Program-made: the position numbers and the translations under genes
In this document: in pieces, positions 33,134-61,240 of the stretch
How the letters are laid out: each line of letters starts with the position of its first letter
Numbering within the stretch: position 1 is the first letter of the stretch
Origin: Candidatus Latescibacterota bacterium
Lineage (GTDB): Bacteria; Latescibacterota; UBA2968; UBA8231
NCBI GenBank assembly: GCA_965204725.1
Contig: OZ242005.1
Span: 3,552,001 to 3,616,000 of the forward strand
Direction of reading: 5' to 3'
DNA: 64,000 nt
Notes under the pieces: model-generated
The model's input: only the letters and a program-made list of their open reading frames with translations
The model's database searches: none
Told to the model about the DNA's origin: nothing

Positions 33134-33158
33134 GGTGTACTTCCTCGCTTTTAAGCGG

Positions 33159-36100
33159 CTAGAAGTCGAATTGCAAACCAAAGCGTATCTGCCGCGGTGA
33201 GTCGTAGATGTCGCCGCCTTCGGTGGACCAGTAGTGCTGGCGGTTGAGCAAGTTGACGGCCTCGTAGAGCTGCTGGTACTGCAAGCCGCCGCTGGCCTCG
33301 ACGATCTGCTGGCTCAGATCCGGGTTCGTCAAAAAGCCGTCGTCCTTGTCGTTGCCGGTCCGGCCGTACACGTTAATTACGTTCTGGCGGTTGAACAGGT
33401 TTTGCACGTACGCGTAAATCTGGGCATTGACCCCATAGAGCGAAAAGCCCTTGTCGATCCGCAAGCCGACCTCAAAGGTCCAAGGCGTCGCCGAGCGGTT
33501 GATGGACTCAACGGGCTTGCGCGAGCGCGGGTCGTCGCTGGCGAGGATGCCGCCTTCTTCCGGCCCGCGCTGGCCGATTGAGCCATCTACGAGCGTGAAG
33601 TTGTAGCCGCTGGCAAACCGCGCCAGCAGGTTGGCCCCCAAGCTGCGGAGGAACGGGTTCGCTTCGTTGTCGGCAAAGCGGTAGTCCAAAAGCAGGGAGC
33701 CGCGGTGCGTCTGGTTGAAGTCGAGCGGGGAGATGATCGTCGGCACGTCCGTGTCGTTCTCCACGCCCGACTGCGCCGATGTCAGGGTCGAACCGGTGCC
33801 GCGCGCGTCGGACAGGGTGTAGTTCAACTCGGCCCGCACGCGGTTGATCCGCCGCACCTTGAACTGGAACTCAATGCCCTTGGTCGTGGCAAAATCGCCG
33901 TTCTGCAAGTACGTGAACGAGCCGGCCTCCCTTGCGTCGGCCGACACCTCTTGCCGCCGGATTTGGATCTGGCCCTTGACGTCGCGGTAGAAACTCGTCA
34001 CGTCAAACGAGGCAAAATCCGCGAACTGACGCTCAAAGCCGATCTCGTATTGGGTCGTGCGTACCGGCTCAACGTCAAAGGCTGTGGGCGTGAGGATGAA
34101 GTTTTGTCCCCCCAACTCTAGGGCCAGCCGCGCCCCGCCGGTGAACATCTCGCGCATGCGCGGCATCTGGGAGAAGCGCCCGTACTGCACGTGAAAGACC
34201 GTCAGGTCCGACACCGGGAACGAAAAGCCCAAGCGCGGGCTGACCTCCGTATAGGCCGCTGTCTTCTCCATGTAGGTGCCGGCCGAGTCTGCGATCACCA
34301 GAGTGCGCTCCTTTTCGTCAACCACCGGCGCCGCTTGATCGACAAAGCGCCAACTCGCCGCATCAAAGTAATCCAAGCGCAACCCGGCGTTGATGATCAG
34401 ATCATTGTATTCAATTTTGTCTTGGACGTAGGCCGAGCCGACCACGGGCTTGCGCGGGTCTTGCAGCGGGTCGGCCGACGAGTCAATGGAGCGGCCAAAC
34501 TCGTCGTAGCCAAAGAAGTCGCCCGAGCTGCGGCGTAGAAACCGCTTGAGGTCATCGAGGCTCCCCTCGCCTTCGGGCAGGCCCTCGGCGGTTTTGATGA
34601 GCTCGTCGAGGATCGCGCCCTCGGCGAGCTCGCCGCTGTAGTACCGCTGGTACACTTCGTCTAGCTCGGGGTAGGTCGCGGCGATGCCTGAGCGAATGGA
34701 CCCGTTGAAAATGCTGTGGCGGCGCGACGTCCACATCTGGTAGTCAAAGCCGGCCTTGAGCTGATGGACCGCGGTCTGCTTGGTAATGCTGCCGGCCAAG
34801 CCCCAATAGCGGTCCTGTTCCTTGCCGTACCAAGCGCCCGTGCTGTTGCCCGACCCAGAATTGGTAGGCGAACCCGGGCGGTTGAACGGAAACCCGCTCA
34901 GGTCATACGGCTCGGGAATCGACCCGTTGGCCGTATAGGGGGTGTACTCCGGGCCGCCTTCCAAGGCCCGCTGGACGGCCACGCTGTCGTTGTACACCCA
35001 CCAACGCTCTTTGAACAACCCGTCAAAACTCTCTCGTCCCTGATTGTAGAAACTGACGTTCATTTCGTAGAACAGGCTCGGGTCGAGCAAGTGGATGGCC
35101 TTTAGGTTGACCAAGCTCGACGAGAGCGTCTGCTCGTTGAGGCGTTCTTGGTTGAGGATGTTTTTGATGGGGTTGATATTGAGGTCGCGTTGCCCGGCCG
35201 AGTGCAGGCCCGTGACCCGGAACAGGATGGGGTTGTAGTTGAAGTGCAGGGTGCCGTTGAAGTCGGTGATATAGCTGCCGGTGTGCGGGATATTGCCCGG
35301 CTTGACCTCCAGCCGCTCGACCACGTCTGGGATGGGATTGCCTTCCTCGTCTTTGGCCCAATGCACGCGCCCTTGGCGATTGCCCGTATCCACCAGATTC
35401 TCGAATTCAAACCCCGACCAGAAGGTCGGTCGATACTCCCGGTACCACCGCTGACCGGCGAGAAAGGCGCGGATGTTTTGGTTGCCCGCGACCGGGCCGC
35501 CGGCCGTGATCACTTGGCTGGAATAGCCATAAGAGTACGTGCCAAAGCGCTCCTCAAAGTCGGAAGTGAAATTGTCCGACTCGGCAATGACCCTGAAGTC
35601 CCAATCGCGGCCTCCGGTGCGCAGCTCCTGCAAGACGATGCCGGCGTTGGCCCCGCCGTACTCGGCGTTGAAGCCGCCGGCCTGTAGCTGAATTTCTTCT
35701 AGGGCTTCGTCGATCAGGCCCACAGCGCTGCCGCCGGTGATTATGTTGCGGACGCTGGCCCCATCGACGTAGTAGCCAATTTCGTCGGAGCGCGAGCCGC
35801 GGATGTGCAACGCCCCCTCGTCTTCAACCACGCCGGCCTGCAAAGCCAAGACTTGGCCGACGCCTCGGAACGGCAGAATTTCTAGGTCCTCGGCCCCGAC
35901 AATCCGCACCGCATTGGTGGCGTTTTTGTCGATGATCGGCCGCTCGGCCCGGATGACCACTTCCTCGACTTGGATATCCGCAGAAGTCAGGTCAATGTCG
36001 AGGTTCGTAGTCAGGTCGGCCGAGACTCGCACATCCTCCACTGTATAGTCTGCGTAGCCGATGTACGTGGCCTTGAGTGTGTAGGTGCCCGCCGGCACGT

Positions 36101-36314
36101 TGAGAATAAAGAAGCGGCCCTTTTCATCGGCCGTGGTCCCCAGCTTGGTCCCGACCACTGCGACATTGGCTTGGGGCAGCCCATCCCCGGTGGTGGCATC
36201 CTTGACGACACCGGCTATTTTGCCGCCCGTACTAGCCCCGGCCGGCGCCAAGCTCAGCGCGAGCAGGACGCCCAGTGCGGTCACAACGCGAATAACGCCT
36301 GCGAATTTGGTCAT
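33159..36314 (-). CDS. TonB-dependent receptor with an N-terminal carboxypeptidase-regulatory-like domain
   Basis: GKIAGVVKD...G.FFILNVPAGTY; plug HIRGSR...YYVDG, GGFNAEYG; barrel YVQDKIE, NAGLRLD, SPRLGFSFP, NLFN, PRQIRFGLQFDF. Confidence 0.93.
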   Translation of the reverse strand: MTKFAGVIRVVTALGVLLALSLAPAGASTGGKIAGVVKDATTGDGLPQANVAVVGTKLGTTADEKGRFFILNVPAGTYTLKATYIGYADYTVEDVRVSADLTTNLDIDLTSADIQVEEVVIRAERPIIDKNATNAVRIVGAEDLEILPFRGVGQVLALQAGVVEDEGALHIRGSRSDEIGYYVDGASVRNIITGGSAVGLIDEALEEIQLQAGGFNAEYGGANAGIVLQELRTGGRDWDFRVIAESDNFTSDFEERFGTYSYGYSSQVITAGGPVAGNQNIRAFLAGQRWYREYRPTFWSGFEFENLVDTGNRQGRVHWAKDEEGNPIPDVVERLEVKPGNIPHTGSYITDFNGTLHFNYNPILFRVTGLHSAGQRDLNINPIKNILNQERLNEQTLSSSLVNLKAIHLLDPSLFYEMNVSFYNQGRESFDGLFKERWWVYNDSVAVQRALEGGPEYTPYTANGSIPEPYDLSGFPFNRPGSPTNSGSGNSTGAWYGKEQDRYWGLAGSITKQTAVHQLKAGFDYQMWTSRRHSIFNGSIRSGIAATYPELDEVYQRYYSGELAEGAILDELIKTAEGLPEGEGSLDDLKRFLRRSSGDFFGYDEFGRSIDSSADPLQDPRKPVVGSAYVQDKIEYNDLIINAGLRLDYFDAASWRFVDQAAPVVDEKERTLVIADSAGTYMEKTAAYTEVSPRLGFSFPVSDLTVFHVQYGRFSQMPRMREMFTGGARLALELGGQNFILTPTAFDVEPVRTTQYEIGFERQFADFASFDVTSFYRDVKGQIQIRRQEVSADAREAGSFTYLQNGDFATTKGIEFQFKVRRINRVRAELNYTLSDARGTGSTLTSAQSGVENDTDVPTIISPLDFNQTHRGSLLLDYRFADNEANPFLRSLGANLLARFASGYNFTLVDGSIGQRGPEEGGILASDDPRSRKPVESINRSATPWTFEVGLRIDKGFSLYGVNAQIYAYVQNLFNRQNVINVYGRTGNDKDDGFLTNPDLSQQIVEASGGLQYQQLYEAVNLLNRQHYWSTEGGDIYDSPRQIRFGLQFDF

Positions 36315-36345: not shown

Positions 36346-37059
36346 CTACATCAGATGCAGCCAATCCTCTAAAAGAAAGGTCACGCGCCCGATCAACAGC
36401 GAGACCCTCGCCATAATGGTGTACCCAAACGAAGCACCAAACGAGACCATCAAAAACCATATCCCCACCTTGGAGACATGGCCCGCCGCGCTGGTGTGCT
36501 CAACCGAAAAGAAAAAGTAAACCAACACCCCGACGACCCCGACTAGGACGATCAGCAGGTTGAGCCCTTCTACGCTCCAAGTGAGCGGCTGTAATGTAGG
36601 CTCAATTTGGGCGAGAATAAAGGAAGAAATATAGCGGGGAATCGTCCATCCGGCCCCGAGCCCTACGAAAAACGCAAACGCATAGCGGCTGAGCCAACCG
36701 AAGCGCAACGAAAAGCGCGTCAACATCAAAAGCCCGAGCACGGTCGGGGCCAACAGCCACCAGTTGGGCGTCTCCCCTTCCCCCGGATCGGTCCATTCGG
36801 CGATGAGCTCGCCGTAGATCGTCGGATACCAGTACTGGCCGAATACATAGGCCGCGGCCACGCCGACGAAGACGTGCTCGGCAAACTTGAAGAGCGGGTT
36901 GTCCTTGTAGAGGAAGCTATACAGCGCCAAGGTCATGCCAGCGGCGACTATGACGCCGAAACCGGTCCAGTCGGCCGCCAAGATCCCGCTGGCCACCAAG
37001 GCGATGTTGACGGCCGCAAACAGCAACACAAAACCCAACAAGACATACGTATCGCGCAT
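36346..37059 (-). CDS. Polytopic membrane protein of unknown function (about 7 TM)
   Basis: TLALYSFLYKDNPLFKFAEHVFVG, LVYFFFS, FLMVSFGASFGYTIMARVSLLIGR; highly hydrophobic. Confidence 0.85.
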   Translation of the reverse strand: MRDTYVLLGFVLLFAAVNIALVASGILAADWTGFGVIVAAGMTLALYSFLYKDNPLFKFAEHVFVGVAAAYVFGQYWYPTIYGELIAEWTDPGEGETPNWWLLAPTVLGLLMLTRFSLRFGWLSRYAFAFFVGLGAGWTIPRYISSFILAQIEPTLQPLTWSVEGLNLLIVLVGVVGVLVYFFFSVEHTSAAGHVSKVGIWFLMVSFGASFGYTIMARVSLLIGRVTFLLEDWLHLM

Positions 37060-37062
37060 GGC

Positions 37063-37881
37063 TCAGCACTCCTGCGGAGATCGGCCCCGCCGGGCGGCGA
37101 AGTACGCGATGTTGCCAAAAATCACGAAGGCGACAATGACCAGATGGGTCACCGACTGGGGCGACATGCTCTTGTTGGCCGCATCGCGGTGGTCGATCAG
37201 GACCTCGTATTCGGCGGCACCGGCCAAGCCGCCGAGCAGGCCCACGAGCTGGCCCGATCCGAGGAATGGGTAGAGATCCGGGGCCATTACTGCGGTGCAG
37301 CCGGCCGCAAAGGGGAAGCCGTACTTCTCCTGCCCGAAGGGGATCCACCAAAACTCAATCGAATCCCCGGCCCCTAAGTCAAAGACGAAGTCGAAATCGC
37401 GCAGCGAGCGCAAACCCCGCATCAGCTCCAAGTCGCCGACGCTTGTGCCCCAGTTGTCCTGCGGAAACGCGCCGGGTACGTCGTGCCCCATGTTGAGTAT
37501 GACGCTAGAGGTCCCGGGCTTATAGCCCAGAAAGGCGTACTCCACGCCGTAGGTCAAATCGAATTCGGCCGCCATCTCCTCGAGCACCGCTTGGGCTAGC
37601 CCGGTCGCTTCGGGCCACAGGCAGATGGCGACTACCTTGAGCTGGCGGCTAAATGCGTGGCGCAAAATCGCCCGCGCCATGGGCTGCATCTCCGGGGCCG
37701 TGCTGGCGCCGTAGGAGAAGGAGACTAATACGACCTGCCCGGCGGCGAGCTGTTCAAATTGGTCGTACGCCGCTCGTACTTGCTTGCTCGGCGTAATCGG
37801 CAGGTGCAGCCCGATCAAGAGCGGCCCGACCACGCCCAAAAACACCAAGGCGAAGAGAATGCGGCGGTCAATTTGGATCAT
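37063..37881 (-). CDS. Membrane-anchored alpha/beta-domain protein (probable DUF6754 paralog)
   Basis: N- and C-terminal TM segments around a soluble alpha/beta domain; EMQPMA, YAFLGYKPG, GCTAVMAP...YPF..SGQL.GLLGGL.GAAEYE. Confidence 0.8.
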   Translation of the reverse strand: MIQIDRRILFALVFLGVVGPLLIGLHLPITPSKQVRAAYDQFEQLAAGQVVLVSFSYGASTAPEMQPMARAILRHAFSRQLKVVAICLWPEATGLAQAVLEEMAAEFDLTYGVEYAFLGYKPGTSSVILNMGHDVPGAFPQDNWGTSVGDLELMRGLRSLRDFDFVFDLGAGDSIEFWWIPFGQEKYGFPFAAGCTAVMAPDLYPFLGSGQLVGLLGGLAGAAEYEVLIDHRDAANKSMSPQSVTHLVIVAFVIFGNIAYFAARRGRSPQEC

Positions 37882-38537
37882 TCGTCGCCTCCACCGCCCA
37901 AATACGAACGCTCAATGCCGAAAATGATTCGCAGCGAGGTCGCGATGGCCCCGAGCGACACCCCGAGCAGAATGCCGCGCTTGGCCGCTAAGTTCGGCAC
38001 ACTCATGAGCCAGTCGGTCGCCAGCGGAAAAAACTCCGAGATTTCTCGGCCAATGGGCACTCGGCCCAGCATGACGATCACCGCGGCGATCAGCAACAGC
38101 GCGGCCTCGGGCGTGCGGGCGCGAAAGGTCCGGTAGGCCGCCGAAGCGATGAAAAAGGCCAAGATCGAAAACATGGTGCCCGAACAAGGCAGGTGGACGT
38201 ACTGAAAGAGCCAGTTGTAGCCCCCGGCTTCGGCTTGGGCGACAAAGGGACCGCGGCCATCGTTGTACACGACGAAGAACATCATCAGCGCAAAGCTGGC
38301 GATGGCAACCAAGCTGTAGCCCCAACCGACGACGTGCTGGCGGATCCGCTGCCAATGCAGGTTGAGCAGGCTGTACAGGCCGAGCAGGTAGGCAAACGCG
38401 GAGATGATCCGCACCCACTTTGCCATTTCGCGCTCAAATCCTTGGGCATGGCTGTGCGGTATGTAGTAGATGGCAATGCCCAGCAGGCCAAAGACTAAGG
38501 CGATAGCCAGCGGCACGGTGCGGCTAAAAAACAGCAT
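37878..38537 (-). CDS. Polytopic membrane protein of unknown function (5-6 TM)
   Basis: SILAFFIASAAYRTFRAR, A.KRGILLG..LG.I...LRII.GIER; 4-bp overlap with the next gene. Confidence 0.85.
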   Translation of the reverse strand: MLFFSRTVPLAIALVFGLLGIAIYYIPHSHAQGFEREMAKWVRIISAFAYLLGLYSLLNLHWQRIRQHVVGWGYSLVAIASFALMMFFVVYNDGRGPFVAQAEAGGYNWLFQYVHLPCSGTMFSILAFFIASAAYRTFRARTPEAALLLIAAVIVMLGRVPIGREISEFFPLATDWLMSVPNLAAKRGILLGVSLGAIATSLRIIFGIERSYLGGGGDE

Positions 38538-38546
38538 GGCCCCTCC

Positions 38547-39794
38547 TCAATAGGGAGTAAAGAAGTAGGTTAGCTGGGGGAACAGCCCGGCCGTTGCCAA
38601 GAGCGTACCCAACGCCAAGACGGCCAAAATAAGGGCCTTGCCGGCGTCTTGGCCCTTGAGAGTGCCCAGCATCCGCGGCTCACCGGATAGATAGGCACTG
38701 GCGGCGTAGAGCTCTTCGCCGAGCAGTGTATAGTCGCAGGTAGTAATGAAGAACGGCAACTGGGTGAAGGCGTCGGTGCCGGCGATCTGGATCGCCCCAG
38801 TAGTAGAACCTGTCTCGGCCAACAGCAGGGACTCGGCGTAGAAATATCCCATCATAATGTGGGCGGCTGGCCGGTCGCGGAGCATGAGGCCCTCGACAGC
38901 GGCTGCATAGCTAAACTGCTCGGCCCCGGCGATGAAGACGTGATCGGGGTTGAAGGCATCGGGCCGCCCCGCCTCGATGTACGAGGCTTTCACCGTCTCC
39001 TGACTCACGGACATGACCACTGGATCGGGCGCGACCACCCGCAGCGCGGTGTCGTATTCGGCCGTGCGCCGCGCGACCCGCCCCAAGATGTTGACCGCGG
39101 CAATGGTCGAAATCTGGCTCATGTCGCGCAGGCCGTGGATGAAAAGCACCGGCTTGCCCATCTCGGTCGCCCGCCCCAACGCTTCGTCAAGGGCTTCTAG
39201 CCCGGCAATGCGGCGAATTTTGAGTTCGCGGCGACGCGCAATGCCAATGTAGCCCATGATAAGCCCTGAAAACAGGAGGCATAACACCAGATTATTGGCC
39301 TTGGCGCGATTGAAGAAATTGCCGGCCGACTCGGCTTGGACGATCACTTTGCCGCGGATCGCGCCCCCGGCCGACCGCACATCCACGTGAAAGTAGTACG
39401 TCTTGCCGTCTTCCAACGGGGTCTTTCCGCCCGCGCCCGCAAATTCTTCGACGTTGACGTAATGGCGATTCGCTAGCTCGTCCCCGTGCCCAAAGAGCGC
39501 CGGGGCCTCGGCCATCAAATTCTCCGTGGCCGCGACCTCGGCCGCGACGCGAAAAGGCCCGTTGGGCGAGTCGGCGATAGCTACCTGATAAATCGCGTTT
39601 TCACTGATTTGACGGTCCCGCGGCCAAGTCAGGGTAATACTGCCCCCGTCGTCGTTGGGGGTGTCAAAGGCTTGGACCTCAATCGGCGGCTTAGGGTGGG
39701 CCAGCAGTGTGCCCAGCCCTTGTTCTGCATTTTCCGCCGCGCTCGCCAACGGCCAAGCCAAGACGAGTGTAGATAGCCAGCTTTTTGCGCTCAT
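38547..39794 (-). CDS. FN3-like domain plus DUF6754-type membrane protein
   Basis: Signal peptide; FN3-like AFDTPNDDGGSITLTW...GKTYYFHV; TM; IRRIAGLEALDEALGRATEMGKP, FYAESLLLAETG, AIQIAGT..QLPFF...CDYTLLGEELYAASAYLS; C-terminal TM. Family name recalled, not searched. Confidence 0.8.
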   Translation of the reverse strand: MSAKSWLSTLVLAWPLASAAENAEQGLGTLLAHPKPPIEVQAFDTPNDDGGSITLTWPRDRQISENAIYQVAIADSPNGPFRVAAEVAATENLMAEAPALFGHGDELANRHYVNVEEFAGAGGKTPLEDGKTYYFHVDVRSAGGAIRGKVIVQAESAGNFFNRAKANNLVLCLLFSGLIMGYIGIARRRELKIRRIAGLEALDEALGRATEMGKPVLFIHGLRDMSQISTIAAVNILGRVARRTAEYDTALRVVAPDPVVMSVSQETVKASYIEAGRPDAFNPDHVFIAGAEQFSYAAAVEGLMLRDRPAAHIMMGYFYAESLLLAETGSTTGAIQIAGTDAFTQLPFFITTCDYTLLGEELYAASAYLSGEPRMLGTLKGQDAGKALILAVLALGTLLATAGLFPQLTYFFTPY

Positions 39795-39798
39795 GCCT

Positions 39799-40914
39799 TT
39801 ATCCTTCAATCAACTCCACATTCGCCCGCGGGACTACGGCCTGCTCTCCGCCTTCAAACTCGACAGCCAACACCCGCACCCGCGCCCCGGACTCTACCTC
39901 GCACAACTCGGTCGGCAAGTCTCTGACGCGCCCAACCCGCCCAAAATAGGGCATCCGAATCACGCGCAACAAATCGCCCACCTGCAACCCGGTCTCGCCC
40001 GGCCGCCCCTCTTCTTCCCCTGTGTCAGCGGCTGCGGGGATGATGATTTCCGGCCGCAACACGCCGGCGCGAATCTGAGTCGCGCCGGCCATAGACGCAT
40101 CCATGCCAGCACACGCTTGTAGAATGTCAAAGGGCTTGCGGGCCATGGCGACGCGGCCAAAGCCCTCGGTCGCTACCACGGTCAGGCCGATTTGCTCGGT
40201 CCCGGTGATGGCCACGCCCAAGTCGCGCCCGAGCAGGTCTCGTAGGTCGCGGTCGCGCAGGCCGCCGCCAATCAACCCCACGGCCCCGGCCTGCCGGGCC
40301 TGTTCTACGGTCTCCGCGCTAATCAGGCTGCCGACCACTGCGATCTTGCCCGCCACTTCGGGACCCAGCGGCCCGACGAGGGCGTCCGGGGCATCAACCG
40401 CCAAGTGCAGCGCACCCCAGCACTCACCCCCCACGCCGAAAATGCCTTGGATATACGCACCGCACGCTGCGACGCGCACTCCCTCCGCGGCAAAGACCTC
40501 CTCTACGACCCCATCGACGTACGCCAGCACTTCAACCGGCTTAGGTGCTTGGCGCAAAATCACCTGCCCCGTAACCGGCGAAATGCTTTCGACCGTGCCG
40601 CGGACCGGGGATTCAATGGTGGTCTTGAACCACCGAATAAACGGCTTGGTCGCGGCGAGCGGCTCGCCGGCTTCGACTCGGTCGCCTTCTTTTTTGAGCA
40701 TGTAGCCGGATAGTTCGCGCGGCGCGATGCCCAAGCGGTTGACCAAGTTGAGAGTCGCCACCTCGCCCGGCAGTTCGGTGCGCGCCACGACTTGGTCGCG
40801 GCGCACCGCTTGGCCGCGCTCGACGACCACTTCGCCTTTGAGGGGCAACCGCCGCTCTTTGTGGACGACTGCGCGTTGCGTCACGCGCAGCCCAGGGGTA
40901 TAAGCGTGGGCCAT
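39799..40914 (-). CDS. Uncharacterised cytoplasmic protein with barrel-sandwich-hybrid repeats and a C-terminal KOW/SH3-like domain
   Basis: VVERGQAVRRDQVVA and LKKEGDRVEAGEPLA...SPVRGTV hybrid motifs; QGIFGVGGE; TEGFG..M; TQIRAGV.RPEII; LQVGDLLRVIRMPYFGRVGRV. Confidence 0.8.
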   Translation of the reverse strand: MAHAYTPGLRVTQRAVVHKERRLPLKGEVVVERGQAVRRDQVVARTELPGEVATLNLVNRLGIAPRELSGYMLKKEGDRVEAGEPLAATKPFIRWFKTTIESPVRGTVESISPVTGQVILRQAPKPVEVLAYVDGVVEEVFAAEGVRVAACGAYIQGIFGVGGECWGALHLAVDAPDALVGPLGPEVAGKIAVVGSLISAETVEQARQAGAVGLIGGGLRDRDLRDLLGRDLGVAITGTEQIGLTVVATEGFGRVAMARKPFDILQACAGMDASMAGATQIRAGVLRPEIIIPAAADTGEEEGRPGETGLQVGDLLRVIRMPYFGRVGRVRDLPTELCEVESGARVRVLAVEFEGGEQAVVPRANVELIEG

Positions 40915-40917
40915 GAG

Positions 40918-42699
40918 TTACTCGTATAGGTTTAACGCCCGCTGCCAGTCGCTTATCTGACGCCGGCGGTCGCGGTCAGTCGCCATGTCTATGGGTCGCC
41001 CGCGACCATCGAGCACGAGCCCTACGGCCCCACCGCGCACCCGCGCATTGAGCGCGTGGCCCGGGCCGGCACCCACATCCCACCGCCGCGCCGGCTGGAG
41101 TGCGATTTCGACCTCCTCGCCGTCGGCCAAGGGCAGCCACTGTAGCTCGCCGACCTCCAACTGGCCGGTTCGCCGCCCGCTGGGCAGGTCTAGTTCGTAT
41201 TGGAGGCACACCTCGCCGCCCTTGCCCGCGCCGACCGGGGCCACACACGTACCCAAGTAGATCAGGCAATCGCGCTCAAAAACCTCGGTGGCAGCCCGCT
41301 CGTCAACGGTCGAGAGCACCCCCAAGTGAGGCATCATAAAGATGCTATCGACCGCCAAGCGGGTGACGCCTTCGGGCTGGAAGGCATCTATGAGCATGGC
41401 GCAACTCTGCGCTCGGCGGGGCGCGTGCGAGAGTACGCCGCCGCTGCCGACTAGCATGTCCAGCGTCATCATCTCGACTAAACTCTCGCCGGTGGCACCC
41501 TGCTCAAAGACATCGGCCAGCGTGCGCTTGCTCTGCACCCCCTTTAATCCCACCGCCAACGCCCGGTGCTGGTCAAAGGCCAAGCGCAGGGCCTCGCGGG
41601 CAATGGCTTGCTCGACTTGCAGTTCCTGCATGAGCTGCGGGATGGTCGTCGGGCGGATCATCTTGTTTTTGATCCGGTCGCGGAGGTCGGCCTCCTCAAT
41701 GTCAAAGGGAACCCAGCGCATGATCTGGTCGAGGCCAGCCTCGGCCAGCACGTTGGCGACGCTATAGGACATGCCGAGGTTGGCGCTGACCGTGCGGTTG
41801 AACACGCCATCGAAAACGCTGAACACATCGGTCGTCGCTCCGCCAATATCTACGCCGACGACGTTGATTTCCTGCTGACGGGCAATGGTCTGCATGATCT
41901 GGCCTACGGCCCCGGGCGTGGGCATAATCGGCGCGCTGGTCCAGCCCATCAGCTTGCGGTAGCCCGGGGCCTGCGCCATGACGTGGTCGAGGAAGAGGTC
42001 GTGAATGACGTGCCGCGCCGGGTCCAGATTTTCCCTTTCGAGCACGGGGCGGATGTTCTCGGTAACGGTCAGGGCCATCTTGCCCCCTAGTGCTTTTTCG
42101 ACCTCCTCGCGTGCGTCTTTGTTACCCGCAAAAATAACCGGCAGCTTAAAGCCCGCGCCAAAGCGGGGCTTGGGGTCGGCCGCGCTGATGAATTCGGCCA
42201 ATTCGACCACGTGGCTGACCGTACCGCCATCCGTGCCGCCCGACAGCAGCACCATGTCGGGGCGCAACTGGCGGATGCGTTCTATTTTTTCGTGCGGCAA
42301 GCGCCCGTCGTTGGCCGCGAGCGCGTCCATGACGATGGCCCCGGCGCCCAAGGCGCAGCGCTGCGCGCTCTCGCCGGTCATCGCCAGCACCACGCCGGCC
42401 ACCACCATCTGCAACCCGCCGCCCGCACTGCTCGTCGAGATGTACATATCGGCCCCGACATCGCCAGCGGCTGGGGCAATAATCCGCTCGCCATCGAGAA
42501 TTTGCCGCCCGGACAGTTCCTCGACCTCTTGAATGGCGTTGAGCACCCCCCGGGTGACGTCCTCAAAGGGGGCCTCAACCGTGGTGGGGGCCTCGCCGCG
42601 AAAGGTCTGGCGATACCCCTCGTCCTTCTTTTCGATGAGGATCGCCTTCGTCGTCGTACTGCCGCAGTCCGTGGCGATAACTACGTTGAGGTCATCCAT
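40918..42699 (-). CDS. GlmL/MutL(glutamate mutase reactivase)-like ASKHA ATPase with a C-terminal extension
   Basis: Phosphate-1 ATDCGSTTTKA, SSAGGGL, SGGTDGG, PTPGAV, phosphate-2 VDIGGATTDVFS, RTVSANLGMSYS, adenosine GSGGVL. Confidence 0.88.
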   Translation of the reverse strand: MDDLNVVIATDCGSTTTKAILIEKKDEGYRQTFRGEAPTTVEAPFEDVTRGVLNAIQEVEELSGRQILDGERIIAPAAGDVGADMYISTSSAGGGLQMVVAGVVLAMTGESAQRCALGAGAIVMDALAANDGRLPHEKIERIRQLRPDMVLLSGGTDGGTVSHVVELAEFISAADPKPRFGAGFKLPVIFAGNKDAREEVEKALGGKMALTVTENIRPVLERENLDPARHVIHDLFLDHVMAQAPGYRKLMGWTSAPIMPTPGAVGQIMQTIARQQEINVVGVDIGGATTDVFSVFDGVFNRTVSANLGMSYSVANVLAEAGLDQIMRWVPFDIEEADLRDRIKNKMIRPTTIPQLMQELQVEQAIAREALRLAFDQHRALAVGLKGVQSKRTLADVFEQGATGESLVEMMTLDMLVGSGGVLSHAPRRAQSCAMLIDAFQPEGVTRLAVDSIFMMPHLGVLSTVDERAATEVFERDCLIYLGTCVAPVGAGKGGEVCLQYELDLPSGRRTGQLEVGELQWLPLADGEEVEIALQPARRWDVGAGPGHALNARVRGGAVGLVLDGRGRPIDMATDRDRRRQISDWQRALNLYE

Positions 42700-43027
42700 G
42701 CTTTTGGCTTTCGCGCTGGGCAATGGCCTCTGCGAGCAAGTCTATGCACTGGCGGCGCTCCAACATGCGCGTAAAGCGCTGGTACTCGGTGCGCGAAAAA
42801 ACCAGCGTGGCAAACGGGGCCAAAAAGGCCAAGGCTTGGCTCCCCAAAAAGTTGAGCGGGCGACAGGCCTCCAGCGCCATGGCCGCAGCCGCTCCCATGC
42901 GGCGACTCACTATAAACTCGGCCAGCCGCTCGACGAGGGCGCGCTCGTCTTCAGACCAACCCGCCGCGGGGTCTTCGAGGGCAAAGGCGTGCCGCCACTG
43001 CGCTTTTAAGTTATTGAATCGGAACAT
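42692..43027 (-). CDS. Small helical hypothetical protein
   Basis: 111 aa; overlaps both neighbours; LE..RPLNFLGSQ and LERR motifs. Confidence 0.75.
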   Translation of the reverse strand: MFRFNNLKAQWRHAFALEDPAAGWSEDERALVERLAEFIVSRRMGAAAAMALEACRPLNFLGSQALAFLAPFATLVFSRTEYQRFTRMLERRQCIDLLAEAIAQRESQKHG

Positions 43028-43427
43028 GGCACCGGACGAAACGCGCAACTTCTTCGCGGTTTTGATCGAAGCGCAAAAAAACGCCGCGAAAGGAATCGAG
43101 CCGACCCGGGCGGGCGGATGGACGCAAAAAAATGCCGTCTCGCTGTTCGTCAGCCCGGCGGAACTCCACCCAAAAACGGCGTTGTTTGAGGCCGAGGTGT
43201 TCGCTACGGATCCCTTCGCTGTTGAGTACGTAGCGCGTGGGAAAGAAATAGCGCGACAGCGAGGCGGTCAATGCTCCGAGTGAAAATAGTCCGTAAAACC
43301 AATGCTCAAAACCAACGGCCGCTGCCGCTGAGGAAGCGACGATCAGCGCGACCAACAGCATTGACTTGGCCGGCTTCTCTCGGCGCAGGGGGAGGCTCTC
43401 CCAGCGGAGGGTGTCTGCACAGGACAC
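43011..43427 (-). CDS. Small 2-TM protein with a basic soluble (PH-like) domain
   Basis: Two TM segments, then YFFPTRY...W.EFRR...LDSFRGV.LRF; 6-bp gap after the binding-protein gene. Confidence 0.75.
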   Translation of the reverse strand: MSCADTLRWESLPLRREKPAKSMLLVALIVASSAAAAVGFEHWFYGLFSLGALTASLSRYFFPTRYVLNSEGIRSEHLGLKQRRFWVEFRRADEQRDGIFLRPSARPGRLDSFRGVFLRFDQNREEVARFVRCHVPIQ

Positions 43428-43433: not shown

Positions 43434-45269
43434 CTAGTACATCTGCTCTTCCTGCGCGACCCACCAGTCTTGCAAGCGGACGCCGGGGGGATACCAAGTG
43501 ATGCCGCTGAAGCGGCGGCTGTAGGCTTGGGGCGAGCGCGGCTTCCACATGAAGGTGTATGGCTGTTCCTCGTGCAGGATTTCTTGAAAGCGGCGGTAGA
43601 GCGCGATGCGCTTGTCCGCGTCGAACTCGCGGCGATAGGACTCCAAGATGTGGTCCACTTCGTCGTTGATAAAGACTACGTGGTTGGAGCCGTTCTCTAC
43701 GGCTTGGGAGGAATGCCAGATCTGGTAGCCATCGGGCGCAAAGCGCAAACTGCCGGTCCAAGCCAGCACCGTGGCGTCGAAGTTTTTGCGCCTGATCCTT
43801 TGCAGAAAGATCGACCAGTCCAATTCGCGCACTCGGCAGTCAATGCCGATGTCTTGCAGCTCGTATTGGACCGTTAGGGCGATGTCTTTGCGGATCTGGT
43901 TGCCCGAATTGACCAAGATCTCAAAGCGAAACGGCACCAACTCCTCATCGATGACCTTGTCGAGGATGCCGTCCTCGTCGGCGTCTGCCCAGCCCGCCTC
44001 CGCGAGCAGGTCGAGGGCGCGGTCGGGGTCGTAGGGGTACGGCGCGAGGTCGTGGTTGTATTCGGGGCGGAATTTGTGAATCGGCCCCTCTACCGCCTCG
44101 GCCAAGCCGAACATGATGTTCTCCACCATGCCCTCGCGGTCCGTCAAATAGGTCATGGCTTGGCGCACCCGCTTATCGCCGAAAATCGGGTGGTTGTTGT
44201 TCCACCCGATGTACACATAGCCGCTGGAGTAGCTAACCCCTTTGAGGAAGCGGCGGTTAAAGTCGTCGGACCAGCTCTTTTCCCTGAATTCCAGCGGGCG
44301 CAAGCTGTGGTAATCGAGGTGGCCGTTGGTCAACTCAATGAACGCCGCGTCGGTGTTGTTGATGATCTTAAAAACCACCTTATCGACAAACCCGGGCGGC
44401 AGCAGCCCTTCGACATCCCGGCCCCAGTAGTTTGCATTCCGCGTCAGCACGACTTTCTGCTGAGTGACCAAATCGCGCTCTGGGTCTTCAATCCGGTACG
44501 GCCCCGACCCGAGGGCCTGGCGATTGAAGTTTTGGTTGAACTGCTCGGCAAAGCGCTGGACCCGGTCCTTGTGAGGCCCCGCCTCCCAAGAGCCATCCAC
44601 CAAGCTGGTGAGCTCGACCGGGTCCATCAGCCCCTCCGGGTCGTAGAAGTGTTTGGGCAGGATGGAAAAGCCGCCCAAGATCAAGTCGTTGCGGAAATAC
44701 GGCTCGCGGCAAAGGAAGCGAATTTTGTTGGTCTCTACGATCTGCACGTCGCGGACGGTGGCGTAGTAGTTGCGCAGGTGCGGAGCGAGTACTTGGGGAT
44801 TGTGGATGACCTTCATGCTGAAGACGACGTCCGCGGCCGTCAGCGGCTTGCCGTCTGAGAAGTAAACCCCATCGCGCAACTCAAACGTGTACGCGAGTTT
44901 GTCCGCGGAAACCTTCGGGTACTCTTTGGCGATCTGACCCCGCAGGTTGTACGGCGGATCGTGCTCGGCGTCGAGCAGGCCCTCAAAGATATGCTCCAGC
45001 ACCCTACTGGTGCCGGCATCGCTGGAGGTGTACGGGTTGAGTCTTTCGGGGTCGGACAGCAGATGGCGCACCATCCAGTCGCCGTGGGTGGGCTCGTCTT
45101 CCCCCTCGTAGCGCAGGGGTGCCTTCTCAGTGCCGTCGAGTACGACAATATCCTTGGTACTCATGAGGATTTTCTGCACCACCTCCCACGCCCCTTCCTC
45201 AGCGGCGGCATGGCCGACGACGCAAAGGGCCAACCAAGCGGCCACTACGGACATTCTACACTTAGGCAT
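43434..45269 (-). CDS. Family 5 (peptide/nickel) ABC substrate-binding protein
   Basis: DPERLNP, YTFELRDGVYFSDGKPLTAADV, GSGPY, YIGWN...DKRVRQAM, YDPDRA..LL.EAGW, QEILHEEQPY; SD AAGGAG. Confidence 0.93.
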   Translation of the reverse strand: MPKCRMSVVAAWLALCVVGHAAAEEGAWEVVQKILMSTKDIVVLDGTEKAPLRYEGEDEPTHGDWMVRHLLSDPERLNPYTSSDAGTSRVLEHIFEGLLDAEHDPPYNLRGQIAKEYPKVSADKLAYTFELRDGVYFSDGKPLTAADVVFSMKVIHNPQVLAPHLRNYYATVRDVQIVETNKIRFLCREPYFRNDLILGGFSILPKHFYDPEGLMDPVELTSLVDGSWEAGPHKDRVQRFAEQFNQNFNRQALGSGPYRIEDPERDLVTQQKVVLTRNANYWGRDVEGLLPPGFVDKVVFKIINNTDAAFIELTNGHLDYHSLRPLEFREKSWSDDFNRRFLKGVSYSSGYVYIGWNNNHPIFGDKRVRQAMTYLTDREGMVENIMFGLAEAVEGPIHKFRPEYNHDLAPYPYDPDRALDLLAEAGWADADEDGILDKVIDEELVPFRFEILVNSGNQIRKDIALTVQYELQDIGIDCRVRELDWSIFLQRIRRKNFDATVLAWTGSLRFAPDGYQIWHSSQAVENGSNHVVFINDEVDHILESYRREFDADKRIALYRRFQEILHEEQPYTFMWKPRSPQAYSRRFSGITWYPPGVRLQDWWVAQEEQMY

Positions 45270-45279
45270 ATTCTCTCCT

Positions 45280-46200
45280 TCACACAAACGTCAACCATCC
45301 GTGCCGATCCTCAACTTCGACGCGAACCACGGCGAAAAAGCCCTTTTGGATCTGCGCGGTGATCGGCCCGCACTTGCCGCAGCCGATCGGCACTTGGTCT
45401 ATGGCGCGGATCGGCGTGATTTCGGCCGCCGTACCCGTGAAAAATACCTCGTCGGCGATGTAGAGGAACTCGCGCGGAATTCCGCGTTGCTCGACCCGCA
45501 TCCCCAGATCGCGGATCAGGGTAATGGCGGTGTGGCGGGTGACCCCCGGCAGGATGGCAAAATTAGACGCGGGGGTATAGATCGAGCCGTTTTTGATCAC
45601 AAAGAGGTTCTCGCCGCTGCCCTCGCTGACCAATCCATCCGTTCCCAAGACAATGCCCTCGTCGTAGCCGTTCATATTGGCTTCAATCCGCACGAGCTGG
45701 GAGTTGAGGTAGTTGCCGCCGGCCTTGGCCAAGGCCGGAAACGTATTCGGTGCCATGCGATTCCACGACGAGGTGCAGACCGAAACGCCGTTTTTGAGCG
45801 CGGCCTCGCCGAGGTACTCTCCCCACTCCCAAACGGCGATTACTACGTCAACCGGGCACTCCATCGGATCAACTCCGAGGTTGTCGTAGCCGCGGAAGAC
45901 GACCGGGCGGATGTAGCAAGCCGCGAGTTGATTGACGCGGATCGTCTCGAGGATGGCCTCGCTGATTTCCGCTGGCGTATAGGGAATTTCCATGCGGTAG
46001 ATCTTGGCGGAGTCAAACAGCCTGTTGACGTGCTCGTCGAGGCGGAATACGGCCGAGCCTTTCGCCGTCTTATAACAGCGAATGCCTTCAAAGACGCTCG
46101 ATCCGTAGTGTACTACATGGGAGAGCACGTGGATCTTGGCGTCATCCCAATCGACCAATTGGCCATTGAACCAAATTTTATCGCATTTGGGTAGGGGCAT
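45280..46200 (-). CDS. ilvE: Branched-chain amino acid aminotransferase
   Basis: [53 protein letters not shown]. Confidence 0.97.
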
Positions 46201-46281
46201 GCAGAACATCTCCTTGGGCAAGTATGCGAGTAATTAAGGTAACACCACTGCGAAATCGTTACCAGTGTTAAGGTTAAGCTA

Positions 46282-54170: not shown

Positions 54171-54178
54171 GGAGATAC

Positions 54179-54718: not shown

Positions 54719-54730
54719 AGCGAAGCCCCC

Positions 54731-55489: not shown

Positions 55490-55606
55490 CGGCTTTATCC
55501 CTTTTCTTATGACGATATTAAGATAAAAAAACCCACGCAATCCAAAAAGCAAAGGGCCGCCGACCGCTTGGCCGACCGCCCTTCACAACGAGTAAAAGCA
55601 AGTCGC

Positions 55607-57676: not shown

Positions 57677-57755
57677 TTTGACCCCTCCTGAATTAAGAGA
57701 AGTGCTTAATTAATTGGGCCGCCTTAGCGTTGTCAAGATATTTCCATAAAGACAC

Positions 57756-57786
57756 AAAAAAAGCCCACCCCTAAAGAGGTGGGCTT
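57756..57786 (-). terminator. Rho-independent terminator of the rRNA operon
   Basis: AAGCCCACCTC-TTTA-GGGGTGGGCTT followed by a U-tract, just downstream of 5S. Confidence 0.85.
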
Positions 57787-57801
57787 CAAAACAATAAAAA
57801 A

Positions 57802-57997: not shown

Positions 57998-61022
<3,025 letters not shown>

Positions 61023-61163: not shown

Positions 61164-61240
<77 letters not shown>

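What the first reader, a model, noticed from the sequence alone, without database searches (positions are those of the whole stretch)
36346..43427. Orphan GlmL-like ASKHA ATPase embedded in an 8-gene membrane module with no B12 mutase
Seen: 40918-42699 keeps intact ASKHA motifs (DCGSTTTK, DIGGATTD, GSGGVL) and has a C-terminal extension of roughly 130 aa (…GGAVGLVLDGRGRP). No glutamate mutase (GlmS/GlmE) or other adenosylcobalamin enzyme occurs in the window. It is instead coupled to a soluble partner, two polytopic membrane proteins, two membrane-anchored proteins and two small proteins. Established: GlmL/MutL-type proteins are thought to be ATP-dependent reactivases of B12 enzymes, and the ASKHA fold is reused in actin-like envelope machines (PilM, FtsA, MreB). 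Inference: this ATPase powers or assembles a new class of multi-subunit membrane complex (transporter, energiser or secretion platform), and a 'glutamate mutase L' annotation would mislead. I recall similar GlmL+DUF6754 neighbourhoods in other phyla but cannot verify that here.
Basis: partly seen in the sequence, partly recalled or inferred. Interest (0 to 1): 0.85.

Follow-up and report, generated by a model that had tools for sequence, protein, structure and literature searches.

The report
Conserved membrane module with GlmL-like ATPase
A gene that databases label "glutamate mutase L" is really the ATPase of an uncharacterised, widely conserved seven-to-eight-gene membrane module that has no link to vitamin-B12 mutases and whose job is still unknown.

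Summary
Eight tightly packed minus-strand genes (36346-43427) encode a PF13941 GlmL-like ASKHA ATPase, a soluble partner, a DUF6754 protein, two polytopic and one further bitopic membrane protein, and two small hydrophobic proteins. The ATPase falls below all three NCBIfam GlmL cut-offs. It is 25-30% identical to mutase-linked GlmL but 62-95% identical to DUF6754-linked homologues in other phyla. It carries a clade-specific C-terminal extension of about 115 aa and separates from mutase-linked GlmL in a quick tree. No glutamate mutase or other adenosylcobalamin enzyme was found in the genome (94% complete).

New here:
- ATPase and partner are one polypeptide in 44 of 150 representative clusters.
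- DUF6754 and the ATPase co-occur genome-wide: 32 of 34 DUF6754-positive Planctomycetota and 12 of 12 Nitrospirota.
- The module spans Latescibacterota, Gemmatimonadota, Planctomycetota, Nitrospirota, Methylomirabilota and other phyla.
- The partner models as barrel-sandwich hybrid + swivelling beta/beta/alpha-like + KOW domains.
- The DUF6754 protein has a periplasmic FN3 domain.

The "orphan, mis-annotated GlmL" reading is supported. "Powers a membrane complex" is well supported as a functional association, but physical docking, substrate and mechanism are inferred. My eight literature searches found no description of the module.

The parts
43011..43427 (-). g1: 138-aa small membrane protein (one strong hydrophobic segment at res 22-40, basic C-terminal soluble part); lineage-restricted accessory gene
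   Evidence: ORF. TM scan. No Pfam family (one bPH_6 hit at E 0.012 in 1 of 5 homologues, a lead only). Found in 34 of 80 related loci.
42692..43048 (-). g2: 118-aa small protein with one hydrophobic segment (res 67-85); its 3' end overlaps the start of g3; possible membrane tether for the ATPase (inferred)
   Evidence: No Pfam family in 5 of 5 homologues. Found in 55 of 80 loci, always just upstream of g3.
40918..42723 (-). g3: GlmL-like ASKHA ATPase, 601 aa (593 from the ATG at 42699): PF13941 core res 15-486 plus a clade-specific beta-rich C-terminal extension res ~487-601
   Evidence: Pfam E 3e-127. Below all three NCBIfam cut-offs. ASKHA motifs shared with verified GlmL, extension absent from them. 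62-95% identity across phyla. Separate clade.
39799..40914 (-). g4: 371-aa soluble partner or adaptor: N-terminal barrel-sandwich hybrid (about res 40-125), beta-sandwich plus swivelling beta/beta/alpha-like domain (about 135-297), C-terminal KOW-like barrel (309-371)
   Evidence: AF2 model pLDDT 88.8, pTM 0.74. VIA and Foldseek domain matches. Fused to g3 in 44 of 150 representative clusters.
38547..39809 (-). g5: DUF6754 protein, 420 aa: signal peptide, periplasmic FN3 domain (about 35-166), TM (173-191), highly conserved cytoplasmic alpha/beta domain (192-391), C-terminal TM (392-410)
   Evidence: Pfam PF20539 E 2e-111. FN3 fold Z about 10 in all 50 top rows. TM scan. Many invariant polar residues in 55 sequences.
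37878..38537 (-). g6: 219-aa polytopic membrane protein (about 6 TM), no curated family
   Evidence: Present in 80 of 80 loci directly after g5.
37063..37881 (-). g7: 272-aa bitopic protein: N-terminal TM, about 217-aa alpha/beta domain (predicted periplasmic by positive-inside reasoning), C-terminal TM; no curated family
   Evidence: Present in 79 of 80 loci.
36346..37059 (-). g8: 237-aa polytopic membrane protein, no curated family
   Evidence: Present in 77 of 80 loci.

Best explanation
The eight genes are one conserved operon-like module that builds a two-part machine.

Part 1 is a cytoplasmic ATPase unit. It consists of the GlmL-like ASKHA ATPase (g3) and its obligate partner g4. The two are a single polypeptide in many lineages. 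g4 is built from three small domain types that elsewhere act as mobile carrier or adaptor modules: barrel-sandwich hybrid, swivelling beta/beta/alpha, and KOW.

Part 2 is an inner-membrane unit of four proteins that always travel together. These are the DUF6754 protein g5 (periplasmic FN3 domain, very conserved cytoplasmic domain), the polytopic g6 and g8, and the bitopic g7 with a periplasmic alpha/beta domain. The small hydrophobic proteins g2 and g1 are accessories.

My committed reading is this. The g3-g4 unit docks on the cytoplasmic face of g5-g8, probably on the DUF6754 domain, with g2 as a tether. ATP binding and hydrolysis in g3 are passed on through g4. They drive a conformational cycle of the membrane unit that moves or processes a substrate across, or at, the inner membrane. 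That would make it a primary-transporter-like or energiser-like machine.

It is not a reactivase of a B12 mutase.

Shown: the gene content, the domain folds, the fusion, the synteny, the genome-wide co-occurrence, the separate clade and the lack of mutases. Inferred: physical docking, ATP turnover, the direction of coupling and the substrate.
For: Operon-like packing: overlaps or gaps of 9 nt or less, with no promoter or terminator signal above the shuffled expectation.

Synteny in 80 loci from at least 6 phyla: g5 80, g6 80, g7 79, g8 77, g4 67, g3 62, g2 55, g1 34. The g3 and g4 misses are largely contig ends or Brocadia-type genomes. In 5 of 5 Brocadia-type genomes checked, one 596-636-aa homologue lies elsewhere in the genome.

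Genome-wide co-occurrence:
- Planctomycetota, 121 genomes: DUF6754 in 34, MutL in 36, both in 32, neither in 83.
- Nitrospirota, 101 genomes: the same 12 genomes carry both and 89 carry neither.

Rosetta-stone fusion: 44 of 150 representative clusters fuse g3 and g4. P0121 residues 621-995 match g4 at 42% identity, E 1e-81. Three MAG locus-tag prefixes carry both a fused g3-g4 and a DUF6754 protein at separate loci.

When the cluster is split, g4 stays either with g5-g8 (for example L016, L018, L165) or with g3 (Brocadia, the fusions), as an adaptor would.

ATPase motifs are invariant. g3 is the most conserved gene of the module.

g4 model pLDDT 88.8, with domain matches: Enzyme I swivel 2wqd Z 9.7, rmsd 2.8 over 102 residues; rifampin phosphotransferase 5hv1 Z 9.2; NqrA BSH 4u9o Z 8.0, rmsd 2.1 over 64; KOW Z 7-8.

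Not a mutase reactivase.
Against: - No direct evidence of a physical complex, of ATP hydrolysis or of any substrate.
- g3-g4 is not always next to g5-g8. Of 6 fused loci with at least 5 kb on both sides, only 1 (L094) has g5-g8 adjacent. The neighbours of two fused genes are unrelated.
- Some fusions carry an N-terminal HTH_3 domain. That fits a ligand-sensing regulator or a soluble enzyme better than a motor.
- The fold matches of g4's central domain (Z 8-10) are only just above what unrelated models reach. No His is invariant in residues 135-297, so a phosphohistidine relay is not supported.
- The module was not found in one whole Latescibacterota family (0 of 13 genomes) or in 19 of 81 genomes of the phylum sample, so it is not universally required.
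- 2 of 34 DUF6754-positive Planctomycetota lack a MutL hit. Three further genomes have MutL without DUF6754 and without GlmE; one is sub-threshold and two are fragments at contig ends.
- The tree is the quick version. The careful search did not finish.
Confidence: 0.5

Rival explanations
1. g3-g4 is a soluble ATP-dependent enzyme or kinase of the hydantoinase/oxoprolinase-like branch of ASKHA proteins, or a ligand sensor. It acts on a small molecule that the g5-g8 membrane proteins import or export. The link is metabolic (transporter plus first enzyme), not mechanical.
For: - Weak but repeated Hydantoinase_A hits in g3 and its homologues.
- HTH_3 + g3 + g4 triple fusions resemble ligand-sensing regulator architectures.
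- g3-g4 often lies away from g5-g8.
- g4's many invariant Gly, Glu, Thr, Gln and Arg residues in the central domain look like a catalytic or ligand site.
- An SBP_bac_5 solute-binding gene sits beside the module in 15 related loci.
Against: - No Hydantoinase_B-type partner or other catalytic subunit is present in the module.
- The cytoplasmic DUF6754 domain is itself extremely conserved, with many invariant polar residues. That fits a docking or catalytic partner better than a plain permease.
- 62-95% identity of g3 across phyla is high for a peripheral catabolic enzyme.
- The SBP gene is lineage-restricted (17 of 80 genome loci).
Confidence: 0.2
2. g3-g4 is a chaperone-like maintenance factor, working like a reactivase. 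It uses ATP to repair, load or release a cofactor or a stalled state of a membrane enzyme formed by g5-g8. This keeps the biochemical logic of GlmL but with a non-B12 membrane client.
For: - g3 shares the ASKHA core and motifs with GlmL.
- The co-occurrence with DUF6754 is strict.
- The DUF6754 domain has many invariant polar residues, as an enzyme would.
Against: No cofactor-binding family is detected in g5-g8. The reactivase role of GlmL itself rests, in what I read, on one sentence citing an earlier paper. Nothing here distinguishes 'repairs' from 'drives'.
Confidence: 0.15
3. g3 is an actin-like, polymer-forming or scaffold ASKHA protein tethered to the membrane by g2 and g5-g8. It would organise an envelope process in the manner of MreB-MreCD-RodZ, FtsA or PilM.
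For: - Cross-phylum conservation of g3 is very high.
- The gene set (ASKHA protein, bitopic proteins with periplasmic domains, small polytopic proteins) loosely parallels MreB/MreC/MreD. That comparison is recalled, not tested.
- HTH-fused forms loosely recall the RodZ HTH that binds MreB (recalled).
Against: At E<=0.01, g3 matches only MutL, Hydantoinase_A and Hydant_A_N, not the MreB, FtsA or PilM families. Nothing tested here bears on polymerisation. The obligate g4 fusion has no counterpart in actin-like systems.
Confidence: 0.08
4. g3 is an ordinary GlmL-type reactivase whose adenosylcobalamin client is encoded elsewhere in the genome or in the unassembled 6%. The membrane neighbours would then be coincidental.
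For: PF13941 membership. The genome is 94% complete with 10% contamination, so absence is not proven.
Against: - Below every GlmL/Or-4/TIGR01319 cut-off.
- 25-30% identity to five plasmid-borne GlmL homologues. Four of them sit between glmS and glmE.
- A 100% SH-aLRT split in the quick tree.
- No GlmE in the 34 DUF6754-positive Planctomycetota or in 5 further module genomes.
- The one Planctomycetota genome with MutL next to GlmE (G054) has no DUF6754.
- Synteny with g4-g8 is conserved in at least 6 phyla.
Confidence: 0.02

Closest known systems
GlmL / MutL, methylaspartate (glutamate) mutase accessory protein (NCBIfam NF040745; Pfam PF13941)
   Same: Same Pfam family and ASKHA core. The phosphate-1, phosphate-2 and adenosine motifs align residue for residue.
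   Different: - 25-30% identity and 234 bits against a cut-off of 475.
- About 115 extra C-terminal residues and several insertions.
- Never next to glmS or glmE in 160 module loci: one weak GlmS-like hit in L095 and no GlmE.
- An obligate g4 partner that mutase-linked GlmL lacks.
- A separate clade.
NqrA / RnfC peripheral subunits of the Na+-NQR and Rnf ion pumps
   Same: The N-terminal barrel-sandwich hybrid domain of g4 matches NqrA (4u9o Z 8.0, rmsd 2.1 over 64 residues) and RnfC (8ahx_C Z 7.5). Pfam NQRA_N and RnfC_N hits recur in homologues. In both cases a soluble subunit accompanies small polytopic membrane subunits.
   Different: Only that one domain matches; no whole-chain match (Foldseek TMq <= 0.17). 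g6 and g8 match no curated Pfam family above its cut-off, Rnf/Nqr included. No flavin, Fe-S or NADH-binding family was detected.
Swivelling phosphohistidine domains of PEP-utilising enzymes (PTS Enzyme I, rifampin phosphotransferase, PPDK-type)
   Same: g4 residues about 135-297 superpose on 2wqd (Z 9.7), 5hv1 (Z 9.2), 2e28 (Z 8.5) and 5t12 (Z 8.3). In those enzymes the domain shuttles between an ATP-using domain and an acceptor site.
   Different: No invariant His in that region. The Z values are only modestly above background. RraA, aconitase X and PA-domain proteins score alike, so this is a shared fold, not a shared function.
Actin-like ASKHA components of envelope machines (PilM, FtsA, MreB)
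   Same: An ASKHA-fold protein genetically linked to bitopic and polytopic membrane proteins.
   Different: No sequence-family match. The partner proteins are different. Polymerisation was not examined.

Membership tests
GlmL, methylaspartate mutase accessory protein (NF040745 equivalog) | Score at or above the curated equivalog cut-off (475 bits) | tested here: not met
   234.3 bits. Also below Or-4 (213 vs 600) and TIGR01319 (162.5 vs 204).
GlmL, methylaspartate mutase accessory protein (NF040745 equivalog) | Gene lies between or beside glmS and glmE | tested here: not met
   No GlmS, GlmE or Mal hit in the window. The reference clusters L084, L085, L086 and L088 do have glmS-glmL-glmE.
GlmL, methylaspartate mutase accessory protein (NF040745 equivalog) | Genome encodes glutamate mutase or another AdoCbl mutase as client | tested here: not met
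   0 hits for PF06368, PF09043, PF01642 and PF06751 in the own genome, which is 94% complete. The PF09043 and PF02286 controls rang nowhere, so those two are inconclusive.
GlmL, methylaspartate mutase accessory protein (NF040745 equivalog) | Groups with mutase-linked GlmL in a phylogeny | tested here: not met
   In the quick ML tree, 5 mutase-type rows are split from 51 module-type and fused rows by a branch with 100 SH-aLRT. The careful search did not finish.
Pfam PF13941 MutL (ASKHA / Actin_ATPase-type fold) | Match over the gathering score, with intact phosphate-1, phosphate-2 and adenosine motifs | tested here: met
   425.6 bits against a cut-off of 27, covering profile positions 1-450. 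Motifs invariant.
Pfam PF20539 DUF6754 | Match over the gathering score | tested here: met
   371.6 bits against a cut-off of 27, residues 163-409 of g5.
Na+-NQR / Rnf complexes | NqrA/RnfC-like N-terminal barrel-sandwich hybrid domain | tested here: met
   VIA Z 8.0 and 7.5 over 64-65 residues. The Pfam hits are below their cut-offs.
Na+-NQR / Rnf complexes | Rnf/Nqr-type polytopic subunits and redox cofactor domains | tested here: not met
   No such Pfam family in g4-g8, even at E<=5 for g6, g7 and g8.
PEP-utiliser swivelling phosphohistidine domain | Swivelling beta/beta/alpha fold | tested here: inconclusive
   Z 8.3-9.7 to four PEP-utiliser-type chains. Similar Z to RraA, aconitase X and PA domains.
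PEP-utiliser swivelling phosphohistidine domain | Conserved phospho-accepting histidine | tested here: not met
   No His among the invariant or nearly invariant columns of residues 135-297 in 86 sequences.
Actin-like envelope ATPases (PilM, FtsA, MreB) | Sequence-family match | tested here: not met
   Only MutL, Hydantoinase_A and Hydant_A_N matched at E<=0.01.
Actin-like envelope ATPases (PilM, FtsA, MreB) | Nucleotide-dependent polymerisation or membrane-targeting helix | not testable with these tools
   Needs biochemistry or imaging.

The most novel reading that the evidence does not exclude
The module is a previously unrecognised class of ATP-driven inner-membrane machine. Its motor is an ASKHA-fold ATPase rather than a P-loop, P-type or rotary ATPase. 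The ATPase is coupled through a carrier-like adaptor (barrel-sandwich hybrid + swivel + KOW) to a four-subunit membrane core built entirely of families with no characterised member. The machine transports or energises something across the envelope in much of the FCB group, Planctomycetota, Nitrospira, NC10 and relatives.
Probability: 0.25. Interest if true: 0.9.

Novelty: categorically new. Interest (0 to 1): 0.78.

Why it matters
- Annotation. Many proteins from environmental phyla are labelled "glutamate mutase L" (names), which implies a B12 fermentation pathway these organisms lack. The work here gives a simple rule to tell the two apart: about 600 aa or fused to about 950 aa, a g4 partner, DUF6754 in the genome, and a score below the NF040745 cut-off.
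- Scope. The module is single-copy and largely follows phylum boundaries in the tree. It occurs in at least 581 species-level genomes. These include organisms of biogeochemical importance: Nitrospira, anammox bacteria, Methylomirabilis and Latescibacterota. Five of its eight proteins have no curated Pfam family and a sixth is only a DUF.
- Mechanism. If the ATPase really drives the membrane unit, it would add a new motor type to the short list of ATP-powered membrane machines.
- Testability. Even on the more modest rival readings, the g3-g4 fusion and the strict co-occurrence give experimentalists a defined multi-protein target.

Tried and rejected
- Complex prediction of g4 (alignment A8) with the cytoplasmic DUF6754 domain (A9, residues 192-391): no verdict, ipSAE 0.00 in two runs, controls not run. 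This is evidence neither for nor against binding.
- AF2 of g5 with a 12-sequence alignment: mean pLDDT 56.6. Only the FN3 part was usable, so the fold of the DUF6754 domain remains unknown.
- ESM Atlas. g4 returned only its own family. The DUF6754 domain returned no usable hit. No structure search was possible in either case.
- PDB sequence and profile searches of g3, g4, g5 and g7 found nothing significant. The neurexin hits to g7 at E about 1e-3 were judged spurious.
- Foldseek on the g4 model found no whole-chain match.
- hhalign of g5 against g7 and of g6 against g8 detected no paralogy.
- Pfam at E<=5 on g1, g2, g6, g7, g8 and the g3 extension gave only scattered weak hits: bPH_6 in 1 of 5 g1 homologues and BT_MCC_alpha in 1 of 5 extensions.
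- Pfam on the 900-1355-aa DUF6754 proteins of Planctomycetota showed nothing but DUF6754.
- Sequencing runs: no RNA holder listed.
- Promoter and terminator scan: counts no higher than in shuffles.
- Literature, all searches of the open-access library only (supplements closed). 'DUF6754' gave 0 papers. PF13941 / TIGR01319 / 'glutamate mutase L' / PF20539 gave 1 irrelevant paper. 'GlmL-like' and four variants gave 0. 'glutamate mutase' with 'anammox' or with 'Nitrospira' gave 3 irrelevant papers, judged from the listings. 'GlmL'/'ASKHA' gave nothing relevant among the 25 of 3,045 papers listed. 'GlmL' with 'glutamate mutase' gave PMC4682846, of which I read one passage.
- The SBP_bac_5 gene as a core part of the module was rejected. 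It is confined to close Latescibacterota and Gemmatimonadota relatives.
- The careful ML tree did not finish in two 300-s runs on one CPU. Only the quick tree is reported.
- Genome-level co-occurrence in the fused-form phyla could not be sampled. I had no genome handles there and the metagenome records are not held. Only three shared locus-tag prefixes bear on it.

Full report
**1. What is there**

Between 36346 and 43427 the minus strand carries eight ORFs separated by overlaps or gaps of at most 9 nt.
- g1: 43011-43427, 138 aa.
- g2: 42692-43048, 118 aa.
- g4: 39799-40914, 371 aa.
- g5: 38547-39809, 420 aa.
- g6: 37878-38537, 219 aa.
- g7: 37063-37881, 272 aa.
- g8: 36346-37059, 237 aa.

A consensus scan found no promoter-like or terminator-like sites beyond the shuffled expectation inside the block. 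Nothing in the sequence argues against a single transcription unit.

Pfam gives PF13941 MutL for g3 (E 3e-127, residues 15-486) and PF20539 DUF6754 for g5 (E 2e-111). g4 has weak Biotin_lipoyl, RnfC_N, NQRA_N and PA hits. g1, g2, g6, g7 and g8 have no hit. Even at E<=5 over 16-17 homologues each, g6, g7 and g8 match no family consistently.

g3 and g4 are soluble. g5 and g7 each have an N-terminal and a C-terminal membrane segment around a roughly 200-aa domain. g6 and g8 are polytopic. g1 and g2 each carry one hydrophobic segment.

The quoted motifs are all present and invariant in homologues. The extension beyond the Pfam match is about 115 aa rather than 130.

**2. The ATPase is not a mutase-linked GlmL**

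NCBIfam places g3 below every relevant cut-off: GlmL 234 vs 475 bits, Or-4 213 vs 600, TIGR01319 162.5 vs 204.

A tblastn against plasmid records found ten GlmL-type genes at 25.5-29.9% identity. None covers 80% of g3. Five were fetched.
- Three are annotated glmS-glmL-glmE-mal clusters with GlmL of 461-467 aa.
- A fourth (L088) has GlmS and GlmE on either side by tblastn.
- The fifth (L087) has only a GlmS-like gene beside it.

An alignment shows that the ASKHA motifs are shared. The roughly 115-aa C-terminal extension and several insertions exist only in the module type.

Against a profile of 17 module-type sequences, these five score 120-175 bits, fused forms 368-532 and module-type proteins 750-1161.

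A quick maximum-likelihood tree of 56 rows separates the five mutase-type rows from the other 51 by a branch with 100% SH-aLRT (2.06 + 2.45 changes per column). It places the window's protein in a 25-row clade (99%) whose members are DUF6754-adjacent or come from DUF6754-bearing genomes. The careful search did not finish, and long branches make the details unsure.

**3. No client mutase**

The genome is 5.43 Mb in 2 contigs, 94% complete with 10% contamination. It has one MutL and one DUF6754 gene. It has no Met_asp_mut_E, Lys-AminoMut_A, MM_CoA_mutase or EutB. The Lys-AminoMut_A and Dehydratase_LU searches are weak tests because their controls rang nowhere.

The only B12-binding domain belongs to a 251-aa corrinoid protein next to a URO-D-type methyltransferase about 950 kb away.

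Elsewhere:
- In a sample of 121 Planctomycetota genomes, GlmE passed its cut-off in 2 (G012, G054) and in none of the 34 with DUF6754. In G054 a weak MutL hit lies directly beside GlmE, which is the mutase-linked arrangement.
- Five further module-bearing genomes have no GlmE. They are two Nitrospirota, one Methylomirabilota, one Gemmatimonadota and one Thermodesulfobacteriota.
- Across 160 fetched module loci, GlmS, GlmE and Mal queries gave one weak GlmS-like hit.

**4. The module is conserved across phyla**

The best 80 come from Latescibacterota, Gemmatimonadota, Planctomycetota (including Brocadia and Scalindua), Nitrospirota (Nitrospira), Methylomirabilota and one Thermodesulfobacteriota.

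tblastn with the eight window proteins found g5 in 80, g6 in 80, g7 in 79, g8 in 77, g4 in 67, g3 in 62, g2 in 55 and g1 in 34 of the 80 loci, in the same order and orientation. g3 is the most conserved gene, at 62-95% identity.

Clustering all ORFs of 31 loci from eight groups found no other gene family recurring across phyla.

Where g3 and g4 are missing from the flank, as in Brocadia-type genomes, 5 of 5 genomes carry one 596-636-aa homologue elsewhere.

Genome-wide counts:
- Planctomycetota, 121 genomes: DUF6754 in 34, MutL in 36 (35 over the cut-off), both in 32. DUF6754 only in 2 (G067, G096). MutL only in 4: G054 mutase-linked, G105 sub-threshold, G094 and G118 at contig ends. Neither in 83.
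- Nitrospirota, 101 genomes: the same 12 genomes carry both, about 3 kb apart, and 89 carry neither.
- The window's own phylum: DUF6754 in 62 of 81 genomes (38 of 50 high-quality ones). It is present in nearly all members of most families but in 0 of 13 of family f9.

**5. ATPase and partner are one unit**

A search of 1.84 billion cluster representatives gave 3096 relatives of g3, 809 of them at E<=1e-30. Of the best 150, 44 also contain a g4-like region. In P0121, residues 621-995 align with all of g4 at 42% identity, E 1e-81. Some carry an additional N-terminal HTH_3 domain.

The fused proteins are named "glutamate mutase L" or "TIGR01319 family". They come from Zixibacteria, WOR-3, Fermentibacteria, Aegiribacteria, Cloacimonetes, Delongbacteria, Eisenbacteria, Edwardsbacteria and others.

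In 80 metagenome loci fetched with a fusion alignment, g5 was found beside g3 in 30, g6 in 29, g7 in 24 and g8 in 22. Among six fused loci with at least 5 kb on each side, only L094 has g5-g8 adjacent. The neighbours of two others are unrelated.

DUF6754 proteins are nevertheless common in the same candidate phyla. Three MAG locus-tag prefixes (AVO35, GF402, GQ565) appear both on a fused protein and on a DUF6754 protein. So the two parts also co-occur there without being adjacent.

When the cluster is split, g4 goes sometimes with g5-g8 (L016, L018, L165) and sometimes with g3 (Brocadia, the fusions). That is what one expects of a bridging subunit.

**6. Folds**

With 86 sequences, g4 folds confidently: pLDDT 88.8, pTM 0.74. 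Foldseek finds no whole-chain analogue (TMq <= 0.17), only KOW and biotinyl-type domains.

The exhaustive aligner resolves three parts.
- Barrel-sandwich hybrid, residues about 50-123: NqrA 4u9o Z 8.0, rmsd 2.1 over 64 residues; RnfC 8ahx_C Z 7.5.
- Central domain, about 135-297, like the swivelling beta/beta/alpha fold: PTS Enzyme I 2wqd Z 9.7, rmsd 2.8 over 102 residues; rifampin phosphotransferase 5hv1 Z 9.2; RraA 3c8o Z 8.9; pyruvate kinase C-terminal domain 2e28 Z 8.5; aconitase X 7cnr_B Z 8.4.
- KOW barrel, 309-371: Z 7-8.

These Z values are only modestly above background. No histidine is conserved in the central domain. I therefore read this as "carrier or adaptor-like domains", not as a phosphorelay.

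Its residues 35-166 are nevertheless confidently a fibronectin type III domain; all 50 top rows are FN3 at Z 9.1-10.4. With the signal peptide and the basic stretch after the first membrane segment, this puts FN3 in the periplasm and the DUF6754 domain in the cytoplasm.

The DUF6754 domain keeps many invariant polar residues across 55 sequences, but its fold could not be determined here. In Planctomycetota the ectodomain can grow to give proteins of 900-1355 aa, with no recognisable family in the extra part.

**7. How it most likely works**

Shown:
- a two-part genetic unit, g3+g4 and g5-g8;
- the fusion of g3 with g4;
- strict co-occurrence of g3 with DUF6754;
- intact ATPase motifs;
- an envelope-spanning topology;
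- no B12 client.

Inferred: the g3-g4 unit docks on the cytoplasmic face of g5-g8. ATP-driven changes in g3 are transmitted through g4's mobile-type domains. The membrane unit uses them to move or process something across or at the inner membrane.

I give this about 0.5. The rivals are a soluble ATP-dependent enzyme or sensor linked metabolically to a transporter (0.2), a chaperone or reactivase for a non-B12 membrane enzyme (0.15), an actin-like scaffold (0.08) and an ordinary B12 reactivase (0.02).

The HTH-fused forms and the frequent separation of the fused genes from g5-g8 are the main facts that favour the soluble-enzyme or sensor rival.

**8. Novelty**

My eight literature searches found no description of this module (details under Tried and rejected). 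They cover only open-access papers and preprints, and supplements were closed. The only statement on GlmL that I read calls it a chaperone for reactivation of glutamate mutase (PMC4682846, one passage).

Five of the eight proteins have no curated Pfam family and one is a DUF. The ATPase clade, its partner and its extension are uncharacterised. As a system it fits no known kind, so I rate it categorically new. Its function remains unknown.

Noticed in passing
window 43434-45287 (-): A 617-aa SBP_bac_5 solute-binding protein with a signal peptide sits 6 bp upstream of g1 on the same strand. Homologues at >=63% identity lie beside the module in 15 Latescibacterota/Gemmatimonadota loci plus L124 and L165. 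In some (L016, L018, L165) it is inserted between g3 and g4. No ABC permease or ATPase gene lies between it and the module in the window.
   Followed up: partly
window 45280-46221 (-) and 46282-48372 (-): A class IV aminotransferase (Aminotran_4) overlaps the start of the SBP gene. Upstream of it is a 696-aa Ser/Asn/Arg-rich ORF with no Pfam family.
   Followed up: no
window 29843-36314 (-): Directly downstream of g8 lie a 1051-aa CarboxypepD_reg + Plug (TonB-dependent-receptor-like) protein and a 1112-aa protein with no Pfam family.
   Followed up: no
window ~54000-64000: G+C falls from about 0.60-0.65 to 0.52-0.56 over the last 10 kb of the window, with negative GC skew. This may be a foreign or otherwise distinct region.
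   Followed up: no
P0199, P0208, P0211, P0228, P0237 and relatives: Triple fusions of HTH_3 (XRE-type) + GlmL-like ATPase + g4-like region, about 1010-1050 aa, for example from Zixibacteria and Mcinerneyibacterium. This hints at a DNA-binding or regulatory use of the ATPase unit in some lineages.
   Followed up: partly
Planctomycetota genomes G020, G056, G082, G096, G106; L174-L178: Tandem pairs of DUF6754 genes, and DUF6754 proteins of 900-1355 aa whose large N-terminal ectodomains match no Pfam family. Second loci carry short 259-269-aa DUF6754 forms without an ectodomain and have their own MutL copy (G032, G064, G088, G113).
   Followed up: partly
Latescibacterota family f9: DUF6754 was not found in any of 13 genomes of one family (completeness up to 97%), while sister families have it in nearly every genome. 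This looks like a clean lineage-level loss that could be mined for function.
   Followed up: no
G000:C1:2640259-2643588 (L003): The genome's only B12-binding protein is a corrinoid protein (B12-binding_2 + B12-binding) next to a URO-D-family methyltransferase. That is a methyl-transfer system, not a mutase.
   Followed up: yes
G012: One Planctomycetota genome has a strong GlmE hit (E 3.5e-211) but no MutL hit, so glutamate mutase occurs there without a detectable GlmL.
   Followed up: no
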